Assembly: GCA_002441125.1 (NCBI GenBank)
Contig: DJVI01000009.1
Location: 8,175-72,174, forward strand
Reading direction: 5' to 3'
DNA from: a candidate division WOR-3 bacterium UBA6260
Lineage (GTDB): Bacteria > Hydrothermota > 32-111
DNA length: 64,000 nucleotides
In this document: positions 5,939-16,104 of the stretch, piece by piece
Layout of the letters: the number at the start of each line of letters is the position of its first letter
Numbering within the stretch: the stretch's first letter is position 1
Notes under the pieces: generated by a model
What the model was told of the DNA's origin: nothing
Databases searched by the model: none
Seen by the model: the letters and a program-made list of their open reading frames with translations, nothing else
Translations under genes and position numbers: made by a program

Positions 5939-5976
5939 TCAAAAATGTCACACTGTCAAGCACCGTCCCCAATATT
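5939..5976. repeat. 38-bp direct repeat, left copy (tcaaaaatgtcacactgtcaagcaccgtccccaatatt); overlaps the 3' end of the KAP NTPase gene
   Basis: Identical by inspection to 15946-15983. It encodes the KAP protein's last residues NIGDGA plus the stop codon on the minus strand. Confidence 0.85.
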
Positions 5977-7944
5977 TGAATTTGAAATACCGTTACCAAT
6001 ATTGGAATTATTTACTATTTCCTTAAGTTTATTTAAACTATTTGTAATATCCTCTTTGAGATATTCATCAAAATTTTCTTTTTCCATTTCCATTTTATCA
6101 TTTACTTTAGCTAAAATATTTTGAAAAATATCTTTGACTTTTGCTTTATCATAATTACTAATAACATTAATCAAAATCTCTTCCAATAAAAGATCTCTTA
6201 TACTTAAACGAGATCCTTCTTTTACAAGTCGAAGATTATTTAAATAATGTTCTTTGATTTCATTTTTAAAGTTATCAAAATCTTTATTAAAAAATTCTAA
6301 AATTTCATTTATTGACTTAAATTTTTTTTTATTTATTTCTAAAAGATTTTCTTTTAAACCTAAATATAAATTCAGATTATATATTCTAAATAATCTTTTG
6401 AATAAAATAAATTGAACTACTTTTTTTTCGTTTTTTTTCATACCCTTAATAGTATTTTCAAATATGTCTTTAAAATCCAATTTTTCTTTAAATATTTCTC
6501 TAATAAAATTTATAATCATATTTTCTTGTTCTTCTTCATTATTTTTATAATTTATTTTAAAATAAATTAAAAACAATATAAGTTCCATTACACTTTTAAT
6601 CTCAACAATATTTTTATTAAGTAATAATTCTACTTTTTCAATAAAATTGTTTACTTTAGTTTTTTCGTCCTTATCACTTGACTGACCTAATATCTTATCC
6701 GAAATTTGTTCATTATTCTCTTTAAGGTTAATTAAATTTATATCTAATTGATGGATAAATAAAATCCTTTGGGTCATTAAATGTTCCCATATTAAAGGAT
6801 GCTTAAATTTTAACCATTCAATTAGGATAATATCTAACAAAAAAATATTCTCTGCTATTTCTTTTCTACCTTTTATTATTTGTTTCACATTTTCTGTTAA
6901 CATAATAACATCTCTAAAATCATCAAAATCAAAAATACTCGTTGATGTTAAGATATTGTTTAATAAAGCCAATATCAATTCTTTTTGAGAATCGTCATTA
7001 GATAAATGTTCATCAATTATTTCTATTTTTATTTTTTCTTGAAAAAAATCTCTCAAAATTTCAATAGGATTAACAAGTTCTATTTTATAATCGAATGTTT
7101 TATTTAAATAACCACTTATTAAATATTCCTTTTCAAAAATATTCATTAAAGCATTTCTATCAATAGTTGTTATAAGGTAAAAATTTGGAATCCTGCTAAA
7201 GCAGTTTATAAATTTAAATATCTCCAAAATTGTTTCACTATCTATTAATCTATCTAATTCATCTAATATTAGTATAAATTTTTTAGATTTAATATTTTTC
7301 TTAATATGATTTTTAAAATGGTTTAATCTATTTTCAAAATTTATAAGATCATCAATGTAAAATTTAAAACCACTAACTGTTACATCATAGTTTCTAAATA
7401 TATTTTCCCAATAACAATACCTAAATTTTAATCCTAAAAATTTTATAAGATTGTAATATATCTGCTCAGAAGAATAAAAACTTATTAAATTAAGATAAAC
7501 AATTTCTATTTCTTTATCTTTTTTACTTCCATTACTTTTTTTACAAAATGTTTTTTGAAAATATTTTAATAGAGTTGACTTACCTGTTCCCCATTTCCCT
7601 ACTACAGCAATTGTTGCATTATTAATCTCCACATTTTCAATAATACTCTTTAATTCTTCACAATTCTTTTTGATATTATATGCAGGTTCATCTATATTAC
7701 TCAAATGAGTATTTTTAATTTCATCATCTGAATATTGTACATTATTGAAAAATGTATCTCTCAAATACAAGATAAAAATAGAAATAATCAATAACAGTAA
7801 TGGTAAAATTATATTTAACAAATTTAGAAAATAATTGTAAAAAAGTTTAATTTTGAAAATTAATAACAAAATTAATAGAAAAAAGATTATTAAACCTATT
7901 CTATTTATAAACTTTTCTTTATTTGAATTAAACCACATCGACAA
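5956..7944 (-). CDS. KAP-family P-loop NTPase with N-terminal transmembrane helices
   Basis: 662 aa. Walker A AVVGKWGTGKST and Walker B ILILDELDRL, in the KAP NTPase arrangement. Two strongly hydrophobic N-terminal segments. Very AT- and Lys/Asn-rich. Confidence 0.65.
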   Translation of the reverse strand: MSMWFNSNKEKFINRIGLIIFFLLILLLIFKIKLFYNYFLNLLNIILPLLLLIISIFILYLRDTFFNNVQYSDDEIKNTHLSNIDEPAYNIKKNCEELKSIIENVEINNATIAVVGKWGTGKSTLLKYFQKTFCKKSNGSKKDKEIEIVYLNLISFYSSEQIYYNLIKFLGLKFRYCYWENIFRNYDVTVSGFKFYIDDLINFENRLNHFKNHIKKNIKSKKFILILDELDRLIDSETILEIFKFINCFSRIPNFYLITTIDRNALMNIFEKEYLISGYLNKTFDYKIELVNPIEILRDFFQEKIKIEIIDEHLSNDDSQKELILALLNNILTSTSIFDFDDFRDVIMLTENVKQIIKGRKEIAENIFLLDIILIEWLKFKHPLIWEHLMTQRILFIHQLDINLINLKENNEQISDKILGQSSDKDEKTKVNNFIEKVELLLNKNIVEIKSVMELILFLIYFKINYKNNEEEQENMIINFIREIFKEKLDFKDIFENTIKGMKKNEKKVVQFILFKRLFRIYNLNLYLGLKENLLEINKKKFKSINEILEFFNKDFDNFKNEIKEHYLNNLRLVKEGSRLSIRDLLLEEILINVISNYDKAKVKDIFQNILAKVNDKMEMEKENFDEYLKEDITNSLNKLKEIVNNSNIGNGISNSNIGDGA

Positions 7945-8266
7945 TTTTTATCTTATTTTAAGGAACCAATCTTTGAAATTTAAAAACTTTATTCCTAACT
8001 TCATTCCCTTTATACTTTTTTAAAATTATAAACAATAAAATTACTAAATCAAGCAAAAATTTTAAGTCAATTTACTTGTTTTGAATAACCTACATTGAAA
8101 TAAGTGATGGTATATTTATCTATAAAACTTAAAATAATCATAATAAAAATCATTTAAACATAGTAAAGTAAAAGGTCTTTATCTAACATTACATTAAGTC
8201 CTATAATTAAAAATATCCTTTTCTCAATAATATCTTATTTTATAACAGTTTTTGCAATTTTTATTT

Positions 8267-8365
8267 CTCATTCCCTTCCACTATTTTTATTTCTTCCTCA
8301 GTCAAACCATATAATTTATAAACCATCTGGTCAATCTGGCGTTCGTATTCTTTGACTTTGGCCTG
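8267..8365 (-). pseudogene. Duplicated ~100-bp fragment: 3' end of the MmeI-family methyltransferase gene plus the ATGA start/stop junction (non-functional remnant)
   Basis: About 90% identical by eye to 9292-9395. Translates on the minus strand to ...QAKVKEYERQIDQMVYKLYGLTEEEIKIVEGNEK*, against GLTDEEIKIVEGRQ* in the intact gene. It retains the overlapping ATG but continues into a 15-codon junk ORF. Confidence 0.7.
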
Positions 8366-8372
8366 GCAAATT

Positions 8373-9296
8373 TTAAAATAATGACAATTCCCCTTGTCCA
8401 GATTTTTCCTCAACATATTTTAAATTTCTATTAGTATAAAACTGGTTCCTATATCTTTTTGGGTCGCCAATATCTGTTTTTTCTTTTGGGAAAAATCTAA
8501 CCATTATTCTCTTATTATAAGAACTATTTTTCGTATTATCAATTAGTTCAATGAGTAATGGCAAATAACAATCAGCAAGTTCTTCTCTATATTTTGATTT
8601 TTTACTCTTTTCAATACCATGAATAATACTTGTTGTTACACCGAGAACACAATCACATAATTGTATTAGGTTGGAACGTCTGTCTACTTTATGGTCTTTT
8701 GGAAGAAAAGTTATTTCTTTACAATTGAAGAATATATCTTCTTGTTCACTTATTTTGTAAATACAGTGCCAAGGGAAATATTTGTGTTGTTTTTGTTGTC
8801 CATCCTCGTGATAAATATTCTCAACAATAATTTTTTTATTCCCAAAAAATGTTTTTATGGCATATAATAATGCTGACCGAAAAAAACGATTGTATTTACT
8901 ATTGAAGTCATTATTCTGGTCAAACTCTTCTTTTGAAAGGTATGAGTTATTTAATCCAAGAATATATGAATAAAATTTCTTTTGACTTTTATCAGGGTTT
9001 AAAATATACTCAAACCATCTTCTACATATATTTTTTTCATCTGCACTTGCAATTTCTGACCAATGCATAATATGGTTGTTTTTCACATAATAAGGAGAAT
9101 TTATATCAAAATTGCCCTTAAATCGTTCCTGAATAATATCATCAAGTAAAGGATTGTCAATATCTTCAACAATCAACCCTATGTAATGCCATTCATTCCC
9201 AGTATATGAACAAAATTTGGATTGGATTTCATCGGCATAAATATTAATTGTAACAGGATTTTCTTTTATTTCATTACCAAATAAATCCTTGCTCAT
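8373..9296 (-). CDS. hypothetical protein (possibly DUF3800-like), translationally coupled to the methyltransferase
   Basis: 307 aa. Its start ATG overlaps the methyltransferase stop TGA (ATGA). An N-terminal INIYADE motif is loosely similar to the DUF3800 'iyiDES' signature. No other recognisable motif. Confidence 0.5.
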   Translation of the reverse strand: MSKDLFGNEIKENPVTINIYADEIQSKFCSYTGNEWHYIGLIVEDIDNPLLDDIIQERFKGNFDINSPYYVKNNHIMHWSEIASADEKNICRRWFEYILNPDKSQKKFYSYILGLNNSYLSKEEFDQNNDFNSKYNRFFRSALLYAIKTFFGNKKIIVENIYHEDGQQKQHKYFPWHCIYKISEQEDIFFNCKEITFLPKDHKVDRRSNLIQLCDCVLGVTTSIIHGIEKSKKSKYREELADCYLPLLIELIDNTKNSSYNKRIMVRFFPKEKTDIGDPKRYRNQFYTNRNLKYVEEKSGQGELSLF

Positions 9297-12200
9297 TGTC
9301 TCCCTTCCACTATTTTTATTTCCTCATCAGTCAAACCATATAATTTATAAACCATCTGGTCAATCTGGCGTTCGTATTCTTTAACTTTGGCCTGCTTTTC
9401 TTTGTTCTGCAAATAATCATCGTCTTTTGTTATTTCAAGAATTTTATCTACGATGTCAATAAAGGGTTGTTGGTCAATTTTTTCTAGTTCAACTATTGGT
9501 AAAGAATATAAAGCATAAATCCTAAACTGCGCAAGGGTTCGGTTTTTCTGACCGTATAAACCATTTTGATATAAAAAAGACAATAGTTTAGATGAAAACA
9601 AAGCTAATAGTAGTTTTATATTTATATAATTCATTTTGGATTTTACAACATATAAATTTTGATGAGCAATTGCAAAATCATATTTCACGGGTGGGACACA
9701 TAATATTGTATCTCCTGTTTTTCTAATAAAAATTCTTTCACCATTATGTAAATTATAATCATATTTTTGGCATTGTTTTTTTGGTAGATAAACTATTTTT
9801 GCGTAACAGTATCTGTTTAATAGATCATCTCTGATTATAGGTAAAACATTTTTTGATTTTTTGTAAAAAATTTTAGAAAAATTATTATCTAATGAATGTT
9901 CACCTTCCGATATTTTACAATATTCTTTCATTTTTTTGAGGACGTTTAAATAAATCTTTTTTGCTAAATGATTTTTATAAAAACAAATATTCCCATTAAT
10001 ATATTCAACCTTGACTAATTCCTCATTTATAATGTCTCTAAGTATATATTTTCTTATTAAGTCACGTTCTATCATTTTTATATCCGAATAATTTACATAT
10101 TTATTTTCAGACTTTAATTTTTGTGAAATAAATATTGCCGTGGCAACAATTGGTTCTTCAAAAATATTGAAACCTAAATCTACTATAATAATATTATGGA
10201 ATTTATTAATAATTATATCCCGTATATCAGCATATTTAGATAGTGTAATATATGTGTTTGGAGTAATATATGTTATTATTCCTTTTTCCTTTATAATTTG
10301 AGTCCCAAGTTGTATAAACCATTTATATAAATCCTTACATCCTTTTGAGGATTCTGGAAATCTTTTTGTTATATCCGCCAATTCTTTTTCTAATAATTCT
10401 GCTTCCTTTCTTTTTCCTTTTCTTATTAATTCTTTTACAGGACTACCTTTCCCACTTAGAAATTTATACGGAGGATTTGCAATGACAATATCAAACCCAT
10501 TTTTTTCGCGAAATACTTCAGAAAAATAAATATGAAAGTCAAATTCTATATTTCCAATAGTATGGTCTATTGTTCTTAAAAATTTTAGTTGTTCGATAAA
10601 TAATTTTTGAATCTCATCTCTAATTTTAACTTTTTCCATTAAGGATGTAGTAGAAAATAAAAGTTTTTTCTTCTCTTCTATTCTTTCGTTAATATTATTA
10701 TTTGGTAGAATATTTTCTGGTAAACCTAAAAGTGAATTTCCGCATACAAGTTTGTAATCCAGGTTTGGCAAAGGTTTTATTTTTGTAACATCATCTTCGT
10801 CAACTATTAGAGAAAGCCAGAACCTGAGTTTAGCAATATCTATTGCTGATGAATCAATATCTACGCCATAAATACAGTTTTCAATGCAATGACGTTTGAA
10901 ATTATATGATGTTCGTCCCTCTTGGTTAGATAAAAAATTTGTTAAAATATTTCTTGCCTTTACAATTTCCAGCATCATTCCAACAGGAAAGGCGCCTGAA
11001 CCAACGGCAGGATCGCAAACACGGATGTTTTCTAATTTTTCATCTATAAGTTTAGCATTATTCTTTATACTTTCAGGCATCTTAATCTTTTTATATTTCC
11101 CATTATATTCCGGGTTTTCTTCTATCCTTGCAATGACAAGTTTATCGTGTTCAATTGTTATATCTCCGTATTTAATAAGTATTTCAATATCTTCTTTTTT
11201 CACCTTGCCTTCACATTCTGTTGCTAAATAATTTATCAAACTCTCCTGGCACATATAATGAACAATCTCACGAGGAGTATAATATGCCCCCTGACCTTTT
11301 CGCAAGTTCTCTTCAATCAGGTTTTCAAAAACTTTACCAAGTAATTCAGGATCAAGAGCGACCTCTTTTTCAAGTGGCTCATCTTCTTGCACAGTAAAAT
11401 TATACCTATCAAAAACATCAAGAATGCCAGTGCCTATATCTCCTTCTTTCGTTTTTTCATTATTAGAGAACAATTCATTAGGAATAATTAAATCTTTTTT
11501 TTGCCAGTCGTAGTTGTTTACTGGTTCAAAAAGACCACCATTTAAAAATGGGATTTTACAATCAAAATAGTTTGAATATGTTGAATCTGCCTGATTTGTT
11601 CTTGGATTATTTAATGTGTTATAAAACAATACTTCAAGATAATCATTAAAGAAATTTTTCTTTTCTTCACTGCACTTTTTAAATAATGAACGCAGAAAAT
11701 TCCTGTCCCCTTCTCCCCAGTTTTTATCTTTTGGAACACCAAGCCAACCCTTCTTTTGTAAAAAATAGAGGAAGACTATTTGACCTAAAAGTTTTTTGGA
11801 AAAGTCTGATGTTTTTATCTTTTTATTTTCAAATTCTTCTTTAACATTATTATCATTTTTAACAATTGTTTCAATGGTATTATTTAATTTCTGATATAGG
11901 CTAAGGTATTGACTAAGAAATTCTTTTGTAATTTTTTCAACACTAAACGCTTTTTCAAGTTGTTCTAATGTGGGATTATTTACATCATCTTGTAAAATAG
12001 GGAGTAATTGTTGTTGAGCAGTATGATTGGGCTCATTTTTGCCTACCAGAAAAGAATATCTACGAGCAGGTGTAAACTCTTCTTCTCCTTTTGGCTTGCC
12101 TGATTTTGTTTGTGTTAATTTGTATTCCTTTTTAACCAGAGAAAAACGCCAATCGTCAAGTTCTGGTGAAACAAAAGCAACAACAGCAGCATCTTTTTCT

Positions 12201-12517
12201 TTAACAGAACCATATTTACCAGCAAGATAACCTGCAATAAAATTTCGTTGCATTGTCCTGGCACGTTCAATTGAAGTTTCTTTTTTTAAGTAAACTATTA
12301 AAATATCAATTCTTTTGTCTTCTGATACATATTTGCCAACTCGTTCGTATTTGTTAATATATGGCTCATATGTATCTGGTATGTATTGTCCATGATATTC
12401 AAACGGTTCCAAAGAAATTTTATTAAATAAGTTCTTTACAAAATAGACAAATCTTTCCTTTTCAAAAGAGTTTTCAAATGTTTCTCTTATCAATTTTATA
12501 GCAGATTTTTTATCCAT
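9293..12517 (-). CDS. MmeI/PglX-family gamma-class N6-adenine DNA methyltransferase (Type IIG/IIL-like), with N-terminal MmeI-like domain and C-terminal target-recognition region
   Basis: 1074 aa. Motif X GAYYTPREIV, motif I DPAVGSGAFPVG, motif IV VIANPPYKF. Stretches resemble MmeI by recall (RNFIAGY, LFYNTLNNP...IPFLNGGLFEP). C-terminal ...LYGLTDEEIKIVEG helix. GAAGG RBS 8 nt upstream, inside the helicase 3' end. Confidence 0.8.
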   Translation of the reverse strand: MDKKSAIKLIRETFENSFEKERFVYFVKNLFNKISLEPFEYHGQYIPDTYEPYINKYERVGKYVSEDKRIDILIVYLKKETSIERARTMQRNFIAGYLAGKYGSVKEKDAAVVAFVSPELDDWRFSLVKKEYKLTQTKSGKPKGEEEFTPARRYSFLVGKNEPNHTAQQQLLPILQDDVNNPTLEQLEKAFSVEKITKEFLSQYLSLYQKLNNTIETIVKNDNNVKEEFENKKIKTSDFSKKLLGQIVFLYFLQKKGWLGVPKDKNWGEGDRNFLRSLFKKCSEEKKNFFNDYLEVLFYNTLNNPRTNQADSTYSNYFDCKIPFLNGGLFEPVNNYDWQKKDLIIPNELFSNNEKTKEGDIGTGILDVFDRYNFTVQEDEPLEKEVALDPELLGKVFENLIEENLRKGQGAYYTPREIVHYMCQESLINYLATECEGKVKKEDIEILIKYGDITIEHDKLVIARIEENPEYNGKYKKIKMPESIKNNAKLIDEKLENIRVCDPAVGSGAFPVGMMLEIVKARNILTNFLSNQEGRTSYNFKRHCIENCIYGVDIDSSAIDIAKLRFWLSLIVDEDDVTKIKPLPNLDYKLVCGNSLLGLPENILPNNNINERIEEKKKLLFSTTSLMEKVKIRDEIQKLFIEQLKFLRTIDHTIGNIEFDFHIYFSEVFREKNGFDIVIANPPYKFLSGKGSPVKELIRKGKRKEAELLEKELADITKRFPESSKGCKDLYKWFIQLGTQIIKEKGIITYITPNTYITLSKYADIRDIIINKFHNIIIVDLGFNIFEEPIVATAIFISQKLKSENKYVNYSDIKMIERDLIRKYILRDIINEELVKVEYINGNICFYKNHLAKKIYLNVLKKMKEYCKISEGEHSLDNNFSKIFYKKSKNVLPIIRDDLLNRYCYAKIVYLPKKQCQKYDYNLHNGERIFIRKTGDTILCVPPVKYDFAIAHQNLYVVKSKMNYINIKLLLALFSSKLLSFLYQNGLYGQKNRTLAQFRIYALYSLPIVELEKIDQQPFIDIVDKILEITKDDDYLQNKEKQAKVKEYERQIDQMVYKLYGLTDEEIKIVEGRQ

Positions 12518-15945: not shown

Positions 15946-15983
15946 TCAAAAATGTCACACTGTCAAGCACCGTCCCCAATATT
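15946..15983. repeat. 38-bp direct repeat, right copy (identical to 5939-5976)
   Basis: Perfect match by inspection. Lies in the intergenic region upstream of the island operon. Confidence 0.85.
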
Positions 15984-16104
15984 ATCCTTAAAACAAAAAT
16001 TTGATTTGTTGTTTTAATATGTTTTTGCAATGATCGGAGAAGAGAAAAATTCATTTGTAAATTTTTTCTTGAACTAAAAATTTTTATCTTTATACTTTTT
16101 TAAT

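What the first reader, a model, noticed from the sequence alone, without database searches (positions are those of the whole stretch)
5956..7944. KAP-family P-loop NTPase with N-terminal transmembrane helices as the terminal gene of the island
Walker A and Walker B motifs in KAP arrangement, together with two strongly hydrophobic N-terminal helices. In classical KAP NTPases the TM segments are inserted within the P-loop domain rather than ahead of it. The last 7 codons lie inside the 38-bp boundary repeat. The C-terminus ends in a short NIGNG/NIGDG repeat. KAP NTPases are predicted membrane-associated NTPases of defense or abortive-infection context. The gene is separated from the 307-aa gene by about 430 bp that contain the duplicated junction remnant, so it may be transcribed separately.
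Basis: partly seen in the sequence, partly recalled or inferred. Interest (0 to 1): 0.5.

Follow-up and report, generated by a model that had tools for sequence, protein, structure and literature searches.

The report
Membrane-anchored KAP NTPase defence cassette
The gene is a real, divergent member of the KAP/PifA family of membrane-associated NTPases, a likely anti-phage accessory that sits beside restriction-modification-type genes and is bounded by a conserved 32-base DNA element that also marks the ends of the 10-kb island.

Summary
The 660-aa ORF (ATG at 7938) has KAP-style Walker A and B motifs and two N-terminal hydrophobic helices. Its last codons lie in a perfect 38-bp repeat that flanks a 10-kb island. 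KAP membership holds: Pfam KAP_NTPase scores above threshold, 60 of 61 nearest distant relatives are KAP proteins, and hhalign against the PifA family gives E = 5e-32 over aa 77-422. The N-terminal placement of the helices is not unusual: 25 of 60 near relatives share it. A related contig shows the empty insertion site, so the island and its 32-bp crossover core are defined exactly. The same 32-nt element flanks the KAP gene alone in two other WOR-3 lineages, and one nearly identical cassette sits behind two unrelated loci. KAP therefore looks like a mobile cassette. Every homologue with readable context lies next to a DNA methyltransferase and/or a helicase-nuclease gene. Close relatives of the island's helicase-methylase pair lack KAP. 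KAP has the lowest GC of the genes measured in four of five lineages, and its strain differences are mostly amino-acid changes concentrated in the C-terminal helical region. It is most likely an accessory defence NTPase. The mechanism is inferred.

The parts
5956..7938 (-). KAP/PifA-type P-loop NTPase gene, 660 aa from the ATG at 7938 (an in-frame TTG lies at 7944); stop codon at 5956-5958
7843..7899 (-). hydrophobic helix 1 (aa 14-32); present in the window protein, P0001, P0005, P0006 and P0009, weak in P0002-P0004
7762..7830 (-). hydrophobic helix 2 (aa 37-59), conserved in all homologues and followed by a conserved R/K-D motif
7576..7599 (-). Walker A, GKWGTGKS (aa 114-121), the KAP-style GxWGxGK[ST]
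7249..7275 (-). Walker B, ILILDELDR (aa 222-230), the KAP-style hhhhD[DE]xDR
6673..7710 (-). region homologous to the PifA-family KAP core (aa 77-422)
   Evidence: hhalign 99.9%, E = 5e-32; AAA+/ORC, RdrA fold matches
6007..6672 (-). all-helical C-terminal region (aa 423-644) with no known domain; 17 of 20 amino-acid differences from strain L001 fall in aa 408-632
5959..6006 (-). C-terminal tail with the NIGNG / NIGDG repeat; the last codons (GDGA + stop) are encoded by the 32-nt element
5939..5976 (-). right copy of the 38-bp repeat; the conserved 32-nt element GGGGACGGTGCTTGACAGTGTGACATTTTTGA occupies 5939-5970
15946..15983 (-). left copy of the 38-bp repeat (element at 15946-15977), about 298 nt upstream of the helicase start
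7939..8372 (-). non-coding leader upstream of KAP; 8272-8365 is a 94-nt duplicate of the methyltransferase 3' coding end
8373..9296 (-). 307-aa cargo gene with no family match, flanked by the 94-nt direct repeats; absent in strain L015/L027
9293..12517 (-). Eco57I/Type IIG-like N6-adenine DNA methyltransferase, 1074 aa
12521..15679 (-). HKD(PLD) nuclease + SNF2 helicase fusion, 1052 aa
15984..16060 (-). about 78 bp of strain-specific sequence that replaces three genes (316 aa, guanylate cyclase-AAA_16, TPR) present at this position in L025 and L001

Best explanation
The ORF encodes a divergent KAP/PifA-type P-loop NTPase built from three parts. The N-terminus is a membrane anchor of one conserved and one lineage-variable hydrophobic helix. 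The middle (aa ~77-422) is a cytoplasmic AAA+-like NTPase core. The C-terminus (aa ~423-644) is an all-helical region with no known domain.

It is an accessory anti-phage module attached to restriction-modification-type loci, not a core subunit of them. In this window it is the last gene of a 10-kb island (HKD-SNF2 helicase, Eco57I-type methyltransferase, 307-aa cargo, KAP). The island is inserted into the 3' end of a TPR gene, and the insertion duplicated a 32-bp core. The same 32-nt element bounds the KAP gene alone in other lineages, so KAP behaves as a mobile cassette.

Proposed mechanism (inferred):
- The helical C-terminal region senses a phage product, or failure of the neighbouring restriction system.
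- The NTPase core then oligomerises and turns over NTP.
- The membrane anchor converts this into a membrane-level block. This could be a PifA-like permeability lesion, Tmn-like ion export, or interference with DNA entry.

Shown here: family membership, domain layout, island boundaries and empty site, cassette boundaries, linkage to methyltransferase and helicase genes, and an excess of amino-acid changes between strains. Inferred: the defence role, the sensor and effector assignment, and the membrane effect.
For: Family membership:
- Pfam KAP_NTPase 26.2 bits (cut-off 20) and AAA_22 41 bits.
- PADLOC PifA, E = 2.2e-10.
- 60 of 61 nearest distant relatives hit KAP_NTPase.
- hhalign against 20 full-length PifA-family proteins: 99.9%, E = 5e-32, aa 77-422.

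Membrane anchor.

Island and empty site:
- L025 has TPR ...SGDGA* followed by the core and then the SAM-methyltransferase flank, with no island.
- L001, L014 and L015 are occupied, and homology to the window breaks inside the core.

Cassette behaviour:
- The element flanks KAP alone in L002/L003 and in L007/L008.
- L007 and L008 share 99.7% identity over 2323 bp starting at the element, with unrelated upstream flanks.

Linkage to restriction-modification-type genes:
- HKD-SNF2 helicase + Eco57I methyltransferase + variable cargo + KAP occurs in three lineages.
- Methyltransferase (845 aa) - KAP - Res-like helicase (961 aa), with a 4-nt gap and an overlap, occurs in L019 and L022; fragments of the same neighbours flank KAP in L004-6, L018, L020, L021, L023 and L024.

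Accessory rather than core: the helicase family has more than 7900 relatives, and three sampled loci (77%, 81% and 66% identity) show no KAP. L033 is cut off inside the methyltransferase gene.

Separate history: KAP has 20-23% GC against 22-33% for neighbours, and is the lowest of the genes measured in four of five lineages.

Substitution pattern: dN/dS is 2.3 and 1.1, against 0-0.5 for neighbours; Fisher P = 6e-5. 17 of 20 replacements fall in aa 408-632 (P = 4e-6).

Precedent: proteins built as TM + KAP NTPase + ~320-aa unknown C-terminal region protect against phage and need both Walker B and the C-terminal region (PMC13552941). For PifA and Tmn see PMC13001434.
Against: - No experiment exists on this protein or its close relatives.
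- dN/dS above 1 is not significant on its own (P = 0.2) and could reflect relaxed constraint.
- AlphaFold draws the N-terminus as one long helix (aa 3-80), so a two-helix hairpin is not established. Three homologues show only one strong hydrophobic segment.
- No recombinase that could act on the 32-nt element was found in the window or the loci. The check was a crude tblastn.
- The element is absent from the methyltransferase-KAP-Res lineages.
- EF_KAP was reported not to act by abortive infection (PMC13552941), so a PifA-like suicide mechanism is not a safe default.
Confidence: 0.55

Rival explanations
1. KAP is an obligate third subunit of a helicase-methylase-ATPase system. It would be a variant of the Hma / DUF499-centred BREX-related systems in which a membrane KAP ATPase replaces the DUF499 ATPase. 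It would regulate or localise the HKD-SNF2 nuclease-helicase and the methyltransferase.
For: - The order helicase-methyltransferase-(cargo)-KAP is kept in three lineages even though the helicase and methyltransferase are only 33% and 28% identical.
- Variable cargo sits between the methyltransferase and KAP, as in the 'embedded' genes of Hma (10.1101/2024.01.29.577857).
- Type-2 BR systems have the same HKD-SNF2 helicase and N6-methyltransferase, plus an ATPase (PMC12839542).
- In L019 and L022 KAP is translationally coupled to the methyltransferase and the Res-like gene.
Against: - Sampled close relatives of the helicase-methyltransferase pair (66-81% identity) carry no KAP and no other ATPase in that position.
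- The helicase family is huge while the KAP family is tiny.
- The same KAP cassette sits behind two unrelated loci.
- KAP has a distinct GC content.
- There is no DUF499 or HmaC match.
- A 290-430-nt leader separates KAP from the upstream gene in the element-bounded lineages.
Confidence: 0.2
2. The protein is a TniB/TnsC-like AAA+ regulator of DNA mobility. It would help move the element-bounded cassette or the island, and would not be a defence protein.
For: - Pfam TniB 22.7 bits (cut-off 22.4) and AAA_22.
- The gene is always next to a conserved 32-nt element that marks recombination junctions.
- No other mobility gene lies in the island.
Against: - The TniB match covers only the P-loop region (aa 91-173).
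- Homology to PifA-family KAP proteins is far stronger and longer.
- No transposase or recombinase partner lies nearby.
- A membrane anchor is not a feature of TniB or TnsC.
- The methyltransferase-KAP-Res lineages have KAP without the element.
Confidence: 0.07
3. It is a membrane NTPase unrelated to defence (for example signalling or membrane-complex assembly), or a decaying passenger gene that is tolerated in a variable region.
For: - dN/dS is about 1-2.3 with very few synonymous changes, which is compatible with relaxed constraint.
- GC is extremely low.
- No effector domain was recognised.
Against: - The 660-codon frame is intact in all strains and in homologues down to 41% identity, with about 170 invariant columns.
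- Replacements are concentrated in one region rather than spread out.
- Adjacency to restriction-modification-type genes is strict and the distribution is patchy.
Confidence: 0.08

Closest known systems
PifA (F-plasmid T7 exclusion protein; KAP = Kidins220/ARMS and PifA)
   Same: Homologous NTPase core plus the following helical segment. hhalign aligns aa 77-422 with PifA-family positions 8-369 at E = 5e-32. The KAP-style GxWGxGKS and DxxDR motifs are present. PifA acts at the membrane against phage (PMC13001434).
   Different: PifA has no transmembrane helices, whereas this protein has an N-terminal anchor. The C-terminal halves do not align. The PADLOC PifA profile matches only aa 202-384, at 37.8 bits. 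This family is tied to methyltransferase and helicase loci.
EF_KAP-type 'KAP NTPase + region of unknown function' anti-phage proteins (PLoS Biol 2026, PMC13552941)
   Same: The architecture is the same: transmembrane helix or helices, a KAP NTPase, and a C-terminal region of about 320 aa with no known domain. Those proteins are experimentally protective and need both Walker B and the C-terminal region.
   Different: [quoted passage not shown] EF_KAP-type genes were found next to small serine recombinases, and none was found here. The sequence relationship to EF_KAP was not tested.
[quoted passage not shown]
   Same: It is a membrane-anchored P-loop NTPase with long helical C-terminal arms that sense phage proteins, and it synergises with neighbouring defence systems (PMC13001434; 10.1101/2022.08.21.504612).
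   Different: Tmn has two helices inserted after Walker A. This protein has no Tmn hit in PADLOC and no YobI-ATPase hit in Pfam. It belongs to a different family.
Hma / DUF499-centred BREX-related systems, Type 2 (HKD-SNF2 helicase, N6-methyltransferase, DUF499 ATPase)
   Same: The neighbours have the same helicase and methyltransferase architecture. An ATPase occupies the third position, and variable cargo is embedded between conserved genes (PMC8565338; 10.1101/2024.01.29.577857; PMC12839542).
   Different: The ATPase here is KAP-type and membrane-anchored, not DUF499/HmaC. No DUF3780 gene was detected. Sampled helicase-methyltransferase relatives stand alone, without any ATPase.
RdrA of RADAR (S. 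suis RdrA, deposited as a KAP NTPase domain protein)
   Different: RdrA is soluble, forms heptameric rings with the RdrB deaminase, and has no membrane anchor. Sequence similarity is marginal (E = 0.003).
Integron cassettes / pdif modules (analogy for the 32-nt element only; from general knowledge)
   Same: Gene modules are bounded by a short conserved site, the same module occurs in different contexts, and no recombinase lies inside the module.
   Different: The element is 32 nt, not palindromic, and has no conserved hairpin. It does not resemble dif or attC. No integrase is known for it.

Membership tests
KAP family P-loop NTPase (Pfam PF07693) | Profile match above the curated threshold | tested here: met
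   26.2 bits against a cut-off of 20. The best stretch covers only profile positions 6-72 of 293. All six close homologues carry PF07693 in the precomputed annotation.
KAP family P-loop NTPase (Pfam PF07693) | Homology to bona fide KAP proteins across the whole NTPase core, not only the P-loop | tested here: met
   hhalign of A1 against 20 PifA-family proteins gives 99.9%, E = 5e-32, over 335 columns (aa 77-422). 60 of 61 nearest relatives hit KAP_NTPase, best E = 3.9e-67.
KAP family P-loop NTPase (Pfam PF07693) | KAP-style Walker A GxWGxGK[ST] and Walker B hhhhD[DE]xDR | tested here: met
   GKWGTGKS and ILILDELDR. G114, W116, G117, G119, K120, D226, D229 and R230 are invariant or nearly invariant columns in the alignment with distant relatives.
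KAP family P-loop NTPase (classical description, Aravind et al. 2004, as cited in PMC13552941) | [quoted passage not shown] | tested here: not met
   There is no hydrophobic window between Walker A and Walker B; both helices precede Walker A. This feature is not universal in the family. PifA has none (PMC13001434), and 25 of 60 near relatives have N-terminal helices only.
PifA (PADLOC PDLC02361) | Full-length match to the PifA profile | tested here: not met
   Only aa 202-384 match profile positions 163-343 of 720, at 37.8 bits. True PifA-family proteins match positions 6-709 at about 400 bits.
Tmn / YobI family | Tmn or YobI-ATPase profile match, and two helices inserted after Walker A | tested here: not met
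   No Tmn model appears among the PADLOC hits and no PF20693 hit for this protein. No inserted helices.
Hma / DUF499-centred BREX-related system | DUF499 (HmaC/BrxC-like) ATPase as the third core gene | tested here: not met
   No DUF499 hit in Pfam and no HmaC hit in PADLOC for the KAP protein or the 307-aa protein.
Hma / DUF499-centred BREX-related system | HKD-SNF2 helicase and N6-adenine methyltransferase as neighbours (Type 2) | tested here: met
   The helicase has PLDc_2 + SNF2-rel_dom + Helicase_C, with an HmaA hit at E = 9.6e-22 on the helicase part. The methyltransferase has Eco57I and N6_Mtase.
EF_KAP-type anti-phage KAP proteins (PMC13552941) | Architecture of TM helix or helices + KAP NTPase + ~300-aa uncharacterised C-terminal region | tested here: met
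EF_KAP-type anti-phage KAP proteins (PMC13552941) | Phage protection that depends on Walker B and on the C-terminal region | not testable with these tools
   This needs cloning and phage challenge.
TniB/TnsC transposition ATPases | Adjacent transposase (TniA/TnsB) and a full-length TniB match | tested here: not met
   The TniB hit is 22.7 bits over aa 91-173 only. No transposase lies in the island or in related loci.

The most novel reading that the evidence does not exclude
The KAP gene is the cargo of an undescribed type of small mobile defence cassette. The cassette is bounded by a conserved, non-palindromic 32-nt element (GGGGACGGTGCTTGACAGTGTGACATTTTTGA). It inserts at other copies of that element at the 3' ends of restriction-modification-type operons, and it builds modular arrays, including this 10-kb island, without a linked recombinase. 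Functionally, KAP would be a membrane 'guard' that backs up the adjacent restriction system.
Probability: 0.3. Interest if true: 0.7.

Novelty: new variant of a known kind. Interest (0 to 1): 0.5.

Why it matters
KAP NTPases were predicted to be defence proteins in 2004, but experimental support came only in 2026, and their mechanism and partners remain unknown.

This family gives three things to work with:
- A compact, natural test case in which a KAP protein is repeatedly wired to restriction-modification modules. In some lineages it is embedded between mod-like and res-like genes; in others it is appended behind a helicase-methylase pair. The question of whether KAP proteins guard or cooperate with restriction systems becomes directly testable.
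- Natural allele pairs that differ almost only by amino-acid changes in the C-terminal region. These are ready-made specificity-swap constructs.
- A 32-nt element with empty and occupied sites and multiple junctions. It offers an entry point to a recombination system that moves defence genes in an uncultured phylum (WOR-3).

If the mobile-cassette reading is wrong, the finding reduces to a routine new KAP subfamily in a defence island.

Tried and rejected
- A second word-indexed homologue search with the family profile returned only the same six proteins.
- The scan of GTDB genomes found only distant relatives at 23-29% identity, with no useful context.
- tblastn of the protein against PLSDB plasmids found nothing.
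- PHROGs gave no match for KAP or for the 307-aa protein.
- NCBIfam gave only a sub-threshold ABC-type P-loop hit.
- The 32-nt element has no exact match in IMG/VR and no Rfam family at E <= 1. It has no consistent hairpin across copies.
- The sigma-70 promoter scan was at background (36 found, 30.2 expected) and found no terminator, so the transcription question stays open.
- The AFDB Foldseek library was unavailable.
- Fold searches of the full model found only generic AAA+/STAND folds plus RdrA. The C-terminal model found only generic helical repeats.
- A crude tblastn with Hin, gamma-delta resolvase and XerD found no recombinase in the window or the loci.
- The 298-aa gene that follows the methyltransferase in L034 is not related to the 307-aa cargo.
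- The origin of the 78-bp junction sequence at 15984-16060 could not be traced.
- The KAP leader in this window shares no significant similarity with the leaders in L002 and L007, although those two share a 156-nt block.
- Aravind et al. 2004 is not held in the library. It is cited only through PMC13552941 and PMC13001434, which describe the position of KAP transmembrane helices differently.
- I considered and rejected the idea that the GDGA tail is a conserved protein feature. In L007 the element starts after the stop codon, so the conservation is at the DNA level.
Full report
OBSERVATION. The ORF exists as described. It runs 5956..7944 on the minus strand and is listed as 662 aa from a TTG. 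The likely start is the ATG at 7938, giving 660 aa, and a gene caller gave 660 aa for the 99%-identical copy in L027. Walker A is GKWGTGKS (aa 114-121) and Walker B is ILILDELDR (aa 222-230). Kyte-Doolittle analysis shows two strong hydrophobic peaks at aa 14-32 and 37-59, and nothing above 1.6 between the Walker motifs. A perfect 38-bp direct repeat lies at 5939-5976 and 15946-15983. Its core occurs twice in the window against 0.02 expected by chance. The stop codon and the last six codons lie inside the right copy. The tail reads ...NSNIGNGISNSNIGDGA. The 428-nt gap to the 307-aa gene contains a 94-nt, 97%-identical duplicate of the methyltransferase 3' coding end. The gene has 20% GC, against 27.6-35.4% for the other genes measured in the window.

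WHAT THE PROTEIN IS. Pfam gives AAA_22 (41 bits), KAP_NTPase (26.2 bits, cut-off 20) and a marginal TniB hit over the P-loop only. PADLOC gives PifA at E = 2.2e-10 for aa 202-384. The family is small. There are six close homologues at 41-97% identity, two of which carry source names that place them in candidate division WOR-3. An exhaustive profile search of 1.8 billion representatives found 12 at E <= 1e-30 and 823 at E <= 1e-3. Of the 61 sequences scanned (the query plus its 60 nearest distant relatives), 60 hit Pfam KAP_NTPase, best E = 3.9e-67.

THE N-TERMINAL HELICES. The second helix is conserved in all homologues and is followed by a conserved R/K-D motif. The first is strong in the window protein, P0001, P0005, P0006 and P0009, and weak in P0002-P0004. 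AlphaFold draws aa 3-80 as one helix, so a hairpin is likely but not established.

The arrangement differs from the classical description. That description has segments inserted in the NTPase domain (Aravind 2004, as cited in PMC13552941), and Tmn is likewise described as having two helices within the P-loop (10.1101/2022.08.21.504612). The arrangement is still not rare. Among the 60 nearest relatives, 25 have hydrophobic helices only ahead of Walker A, 28 have none and 1 has inserted ones. That sample may be biased, because the query profile includes the hydrophobic region.

THE ISLAND IS REAL AND ITS ENDS ARE EXACT. Looking up the flanking 441-aa protein returned contigs of the same species in different states.
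- L025 is an empty site. It has the same left-hand genes as the window (860 aa, ACPS, MurJ, F420 ligase). These are followed by a 316-aa gene, a guanylate-cyclase/AAA_16 gene and a TPR gene ending ...LKSGDGA*. The TPR gene joins directly to the SAM-methyltransferase flank through one copy of GGGGACGGTGCTTGACAGTGTGACATTTTTGA.
- L001, L014 and L015 are occupied. Their homology to the window's island ends at window position 15978, inside the left element copy. The left copy there forms the 3' end of the TPR gene.

The island therefore runs from the helicase to KAP and carries one duplicated 32-bp core. KAP is its terminal gene, and the GDGA-stop of KAP is encoded by the core.

In this window the three genes to the left of the island are missing. 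About 78 bp of untraceable sequence replace them, next to the left element. No integrase lies in the island, and a crude tblastn found no serine or Xer-type recombinase in the window.

THE 32-NT ELEMENT TRAVELS WITH KAP.
- In the lineage of P0002 (KAP 51% identical), the element occurs about 320 nt upstream of KAP and again at its 3' end, where it codes ...SGDGG*. An inverted copy sits just upstream of the helicase.
- In the lineage of P0003 (48% identical), it occurs 290 nt upstream of KAP and again 5 nt after the stop codon. There it is not translated, so the conservation is at the DNA level.
- L007 and L008 come from different samples. They are 99.7% identical over 2323 bp from the element through KAP to the second element, while their upstream flanks are unrelated. 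One flank is an Eco57I methyltransferase-Ymh-KwaA-310 aa locus and the other is a Res-like helicase.
- Three contigs begin or end at the element. This is what an assembler does at a repeat.

The element has no consistent hairpin. It has no Rfam match and no match in IMG/VR. It is absent from the methyltransferase-KAP-Res lineages and from helicase-only loci. I read it as a recombination site for an unidentified enzyme. That is an inference.

LINKAGE TO RESTRICTION-MODIFICATION-TYPE GENES. Every homologue with readable context sits beside a DNA methyltransferase and/or a helicase-nuclease gene.
- In the window lineage, P0002 and P0003 the order is HKD-SNF2 helicase, Eco57I-type methyltransferase, variable cargo, then KAP. 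The cargo is the 307-aa gene here, nothing in L015, a Schlafen/AlbA_2-HATPase_c_4 gene in L002, and Ymh + KwaA + a 310-aa gene in L007.
- In L019 and L022 an 845-aa N6_N4 methyltransferase is followed after 4 nt by KAP, which overlaps a 961-aa ResIII/SWI2_SNF2 protein. That is a mod-KAP-res arrangement. Shorter contigs (L004-6, L018, L020, L021, L023 and L024) show fragments of the same neighbours on one or both sides.
- In L022, and in several library representatives, KAP is split into a TM+NTPase gene and a C-terminal gene.

The helicase itself belongs to a very large, widely distributed family, with more than 7900 hits at 58-81% identity across phyla. Three sampled loci (77%, 81% and 66% identical helicases) show helicase plus methyltransferase without KAP. 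One of them, L033, is cut off inside the methyltransferase gene.

Together with KAP's low GC (20-23%, the lowest of the genes measured in four of five lineages) and its cassette behaviour, this makes KAP an accessory add-on rather than a core subunit. The pattern resembles the 'embedded' defence genes described for Hma, BREX, DISARM and Type I systems (10.1101/2024.01.29.577857). The helicase and methyltransferase resemble those of Type-2 DUF499-centred BREX-related systems (PMC12839542). The defining DUF499 ATPase is absent.

EVOLUTIONARY SIGNAL. Between the window and L001, KAP shows 21 nonsynonymous and 2 synonymous differences (dN/dS = 2.3). Against L015 the ratio is 1.1. The helicase, the 307-aa gene, the SAM-methyltransferase and the 441-aa gene give 0-0.5. 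The contrast with the pooled helicase, SAM-methyltransferase and 441-aa genes is significant (Fisher P = 6e-5). Seventeen of 20 replacements fall in aa 408-632 (P = 4e-6). dN/dS above 1 is not significant by itself (P = 0.2). The pattern fits a fast-evolving recognition surface but does not prove one.

MECHANISM. Three kinds of membrane-associated P-loop defence proteins are known.
- PifA is a KAP protein with no transmembrane helices. It acts by membrane depolarisation and nucleotide leakage.
- Tmn belongs to the YobI family. It is a decamer that senses phage RIIB through helical arms, and it causes ATP turnover, Mg2+ export and plasmolysis (both from PMC13001434).
- EF_KAP-type proteins consist of TM + KAP + an unknown C-terminal region. 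Walker B and the C-terminal region are both required, and they do not act by abortive infection (PMC13552941).

The present protein has the third architecture and PifA-type core homology. I therefore propose an NTP-driven oligomeric switch at the inner membrane. The variable helical C-terminus would recognise a phage cue or failure of the adjacent restriction system. The output would act at the membrane or at DNA entry. The family assignment, the architecture and the genomic behaviour are shown here. The trigger and the output are inferred.

NOVELTY AND VERDICT. The 'unusual' helix position is common among relatives, and the transcription question remains open. The protein is a new, divergent variant of a known kind. 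The added value is threefold: the repeated wiring to restriction-modification modules, the exact empty and occupied sites, and the 32-nt element that bounds both the island and the KAP cassette. The enzyme that acts on that element is unknown. Interest is 0.5. The element-bounded mobile-cassette reading has a probability of about 0.3 and would deserve about 0.7 if true.

Noticed in passing
window 8272-8365 and 9301-9394; L007 4135-4234 and 4981-5080: The 307-aa cargo gene is bracketed by 94-nt direct repeats (97%) of the methyltransferase 3' coding end, and it is absent in strain L015/L027. In L007 the embedded Ymh gene is bracketed in the same way by a 100-nt, 76% repeat of its methyltransferase's 3' end. 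The conserved ...LYGLTEEEIKIVE coding end may serve as a recombination arm for inserting cargo genes.
   Followed up: partly
window 9293-12517 versus L001 5199-8516 and L015 4530-8041: The methyltransferase is only 80-81% identical over aa 1-797, and aa ~800-1019 do not align at all between strains. The adjacent helicase is about 99% identical. This looks like allele replacement of the methyltransferase (specificity switching) inside an otherwise near-identical island.
   Followed up: partly
window 15984-16060; L025 4445-8685: This strain lacks three genes (316 aa, guanylate cyclase + AAA_16, TPR) that lie between the F420-ligase gene and the element in L025 and L001. About 78 bp of sequence with no traceable origin sits there instead. 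The left repeat copy also carries the extra AATATT found at the KAP end.
   Followed up: partly
L002 9695-10000 and L007 6806-7063: The ~300-nt leaders between the upstream element and the KAP start share a 156-nt block at 74% identity (E = 7e-23) in these two lineages. The leader in this window shares no significant similarity with either. The block may be a conserved promoter or regulatory region of the cassette.
   Followed up: no
L022 8766-9713 and 9706-10800; representatives P0007, P0008, P0010-P0012, P0014, P0019: In some lineages the protein is naturally split into a TM+NTPase gene (~315 aa) and a C-terminal-domain gene (~350-364 aa) that overlap by 8 nt. This supports a two-module organisation.
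   Followed up: partly
L028 128-1112: In another strain an IS110-family transposase (called as two ORFs, DEDD_Tnp_IS110 and Transposase_20) lies upstream of the conserved 441-aa gene, where the SAM-methyltransferase and the island sit here. This suggests the region is a rearrangement hotspot.
   Followed up: no
L016 9422-9595: Two tandem 87-nt repeats (82% identity) overlap the 3' end of the Schlafen-type cargo gene and end just upstream of the element that precedes KAP.
   Followed up: no
window 7945-8001 versus L001: In L001 and L014 the KAP frame is open for 19 more N-terminal codons (MKLGIKFLNFKDWFLKIRYKLS...). In this window a TAA interrupts it where those strains have a Tyr codon. More distant homologues start near the hydrophobic region, so the extension is probably not translated.
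   Followed up: partly
window 5939-5970 (element): The element contains two heptamers, GACGGTG and GACAGTG, 10 nt apart (one helical turn), followed by TGACA. This looks more like a protein-binding site with direct repeats than a dyad-symmetric recombinase core (read).
   Followed up: no
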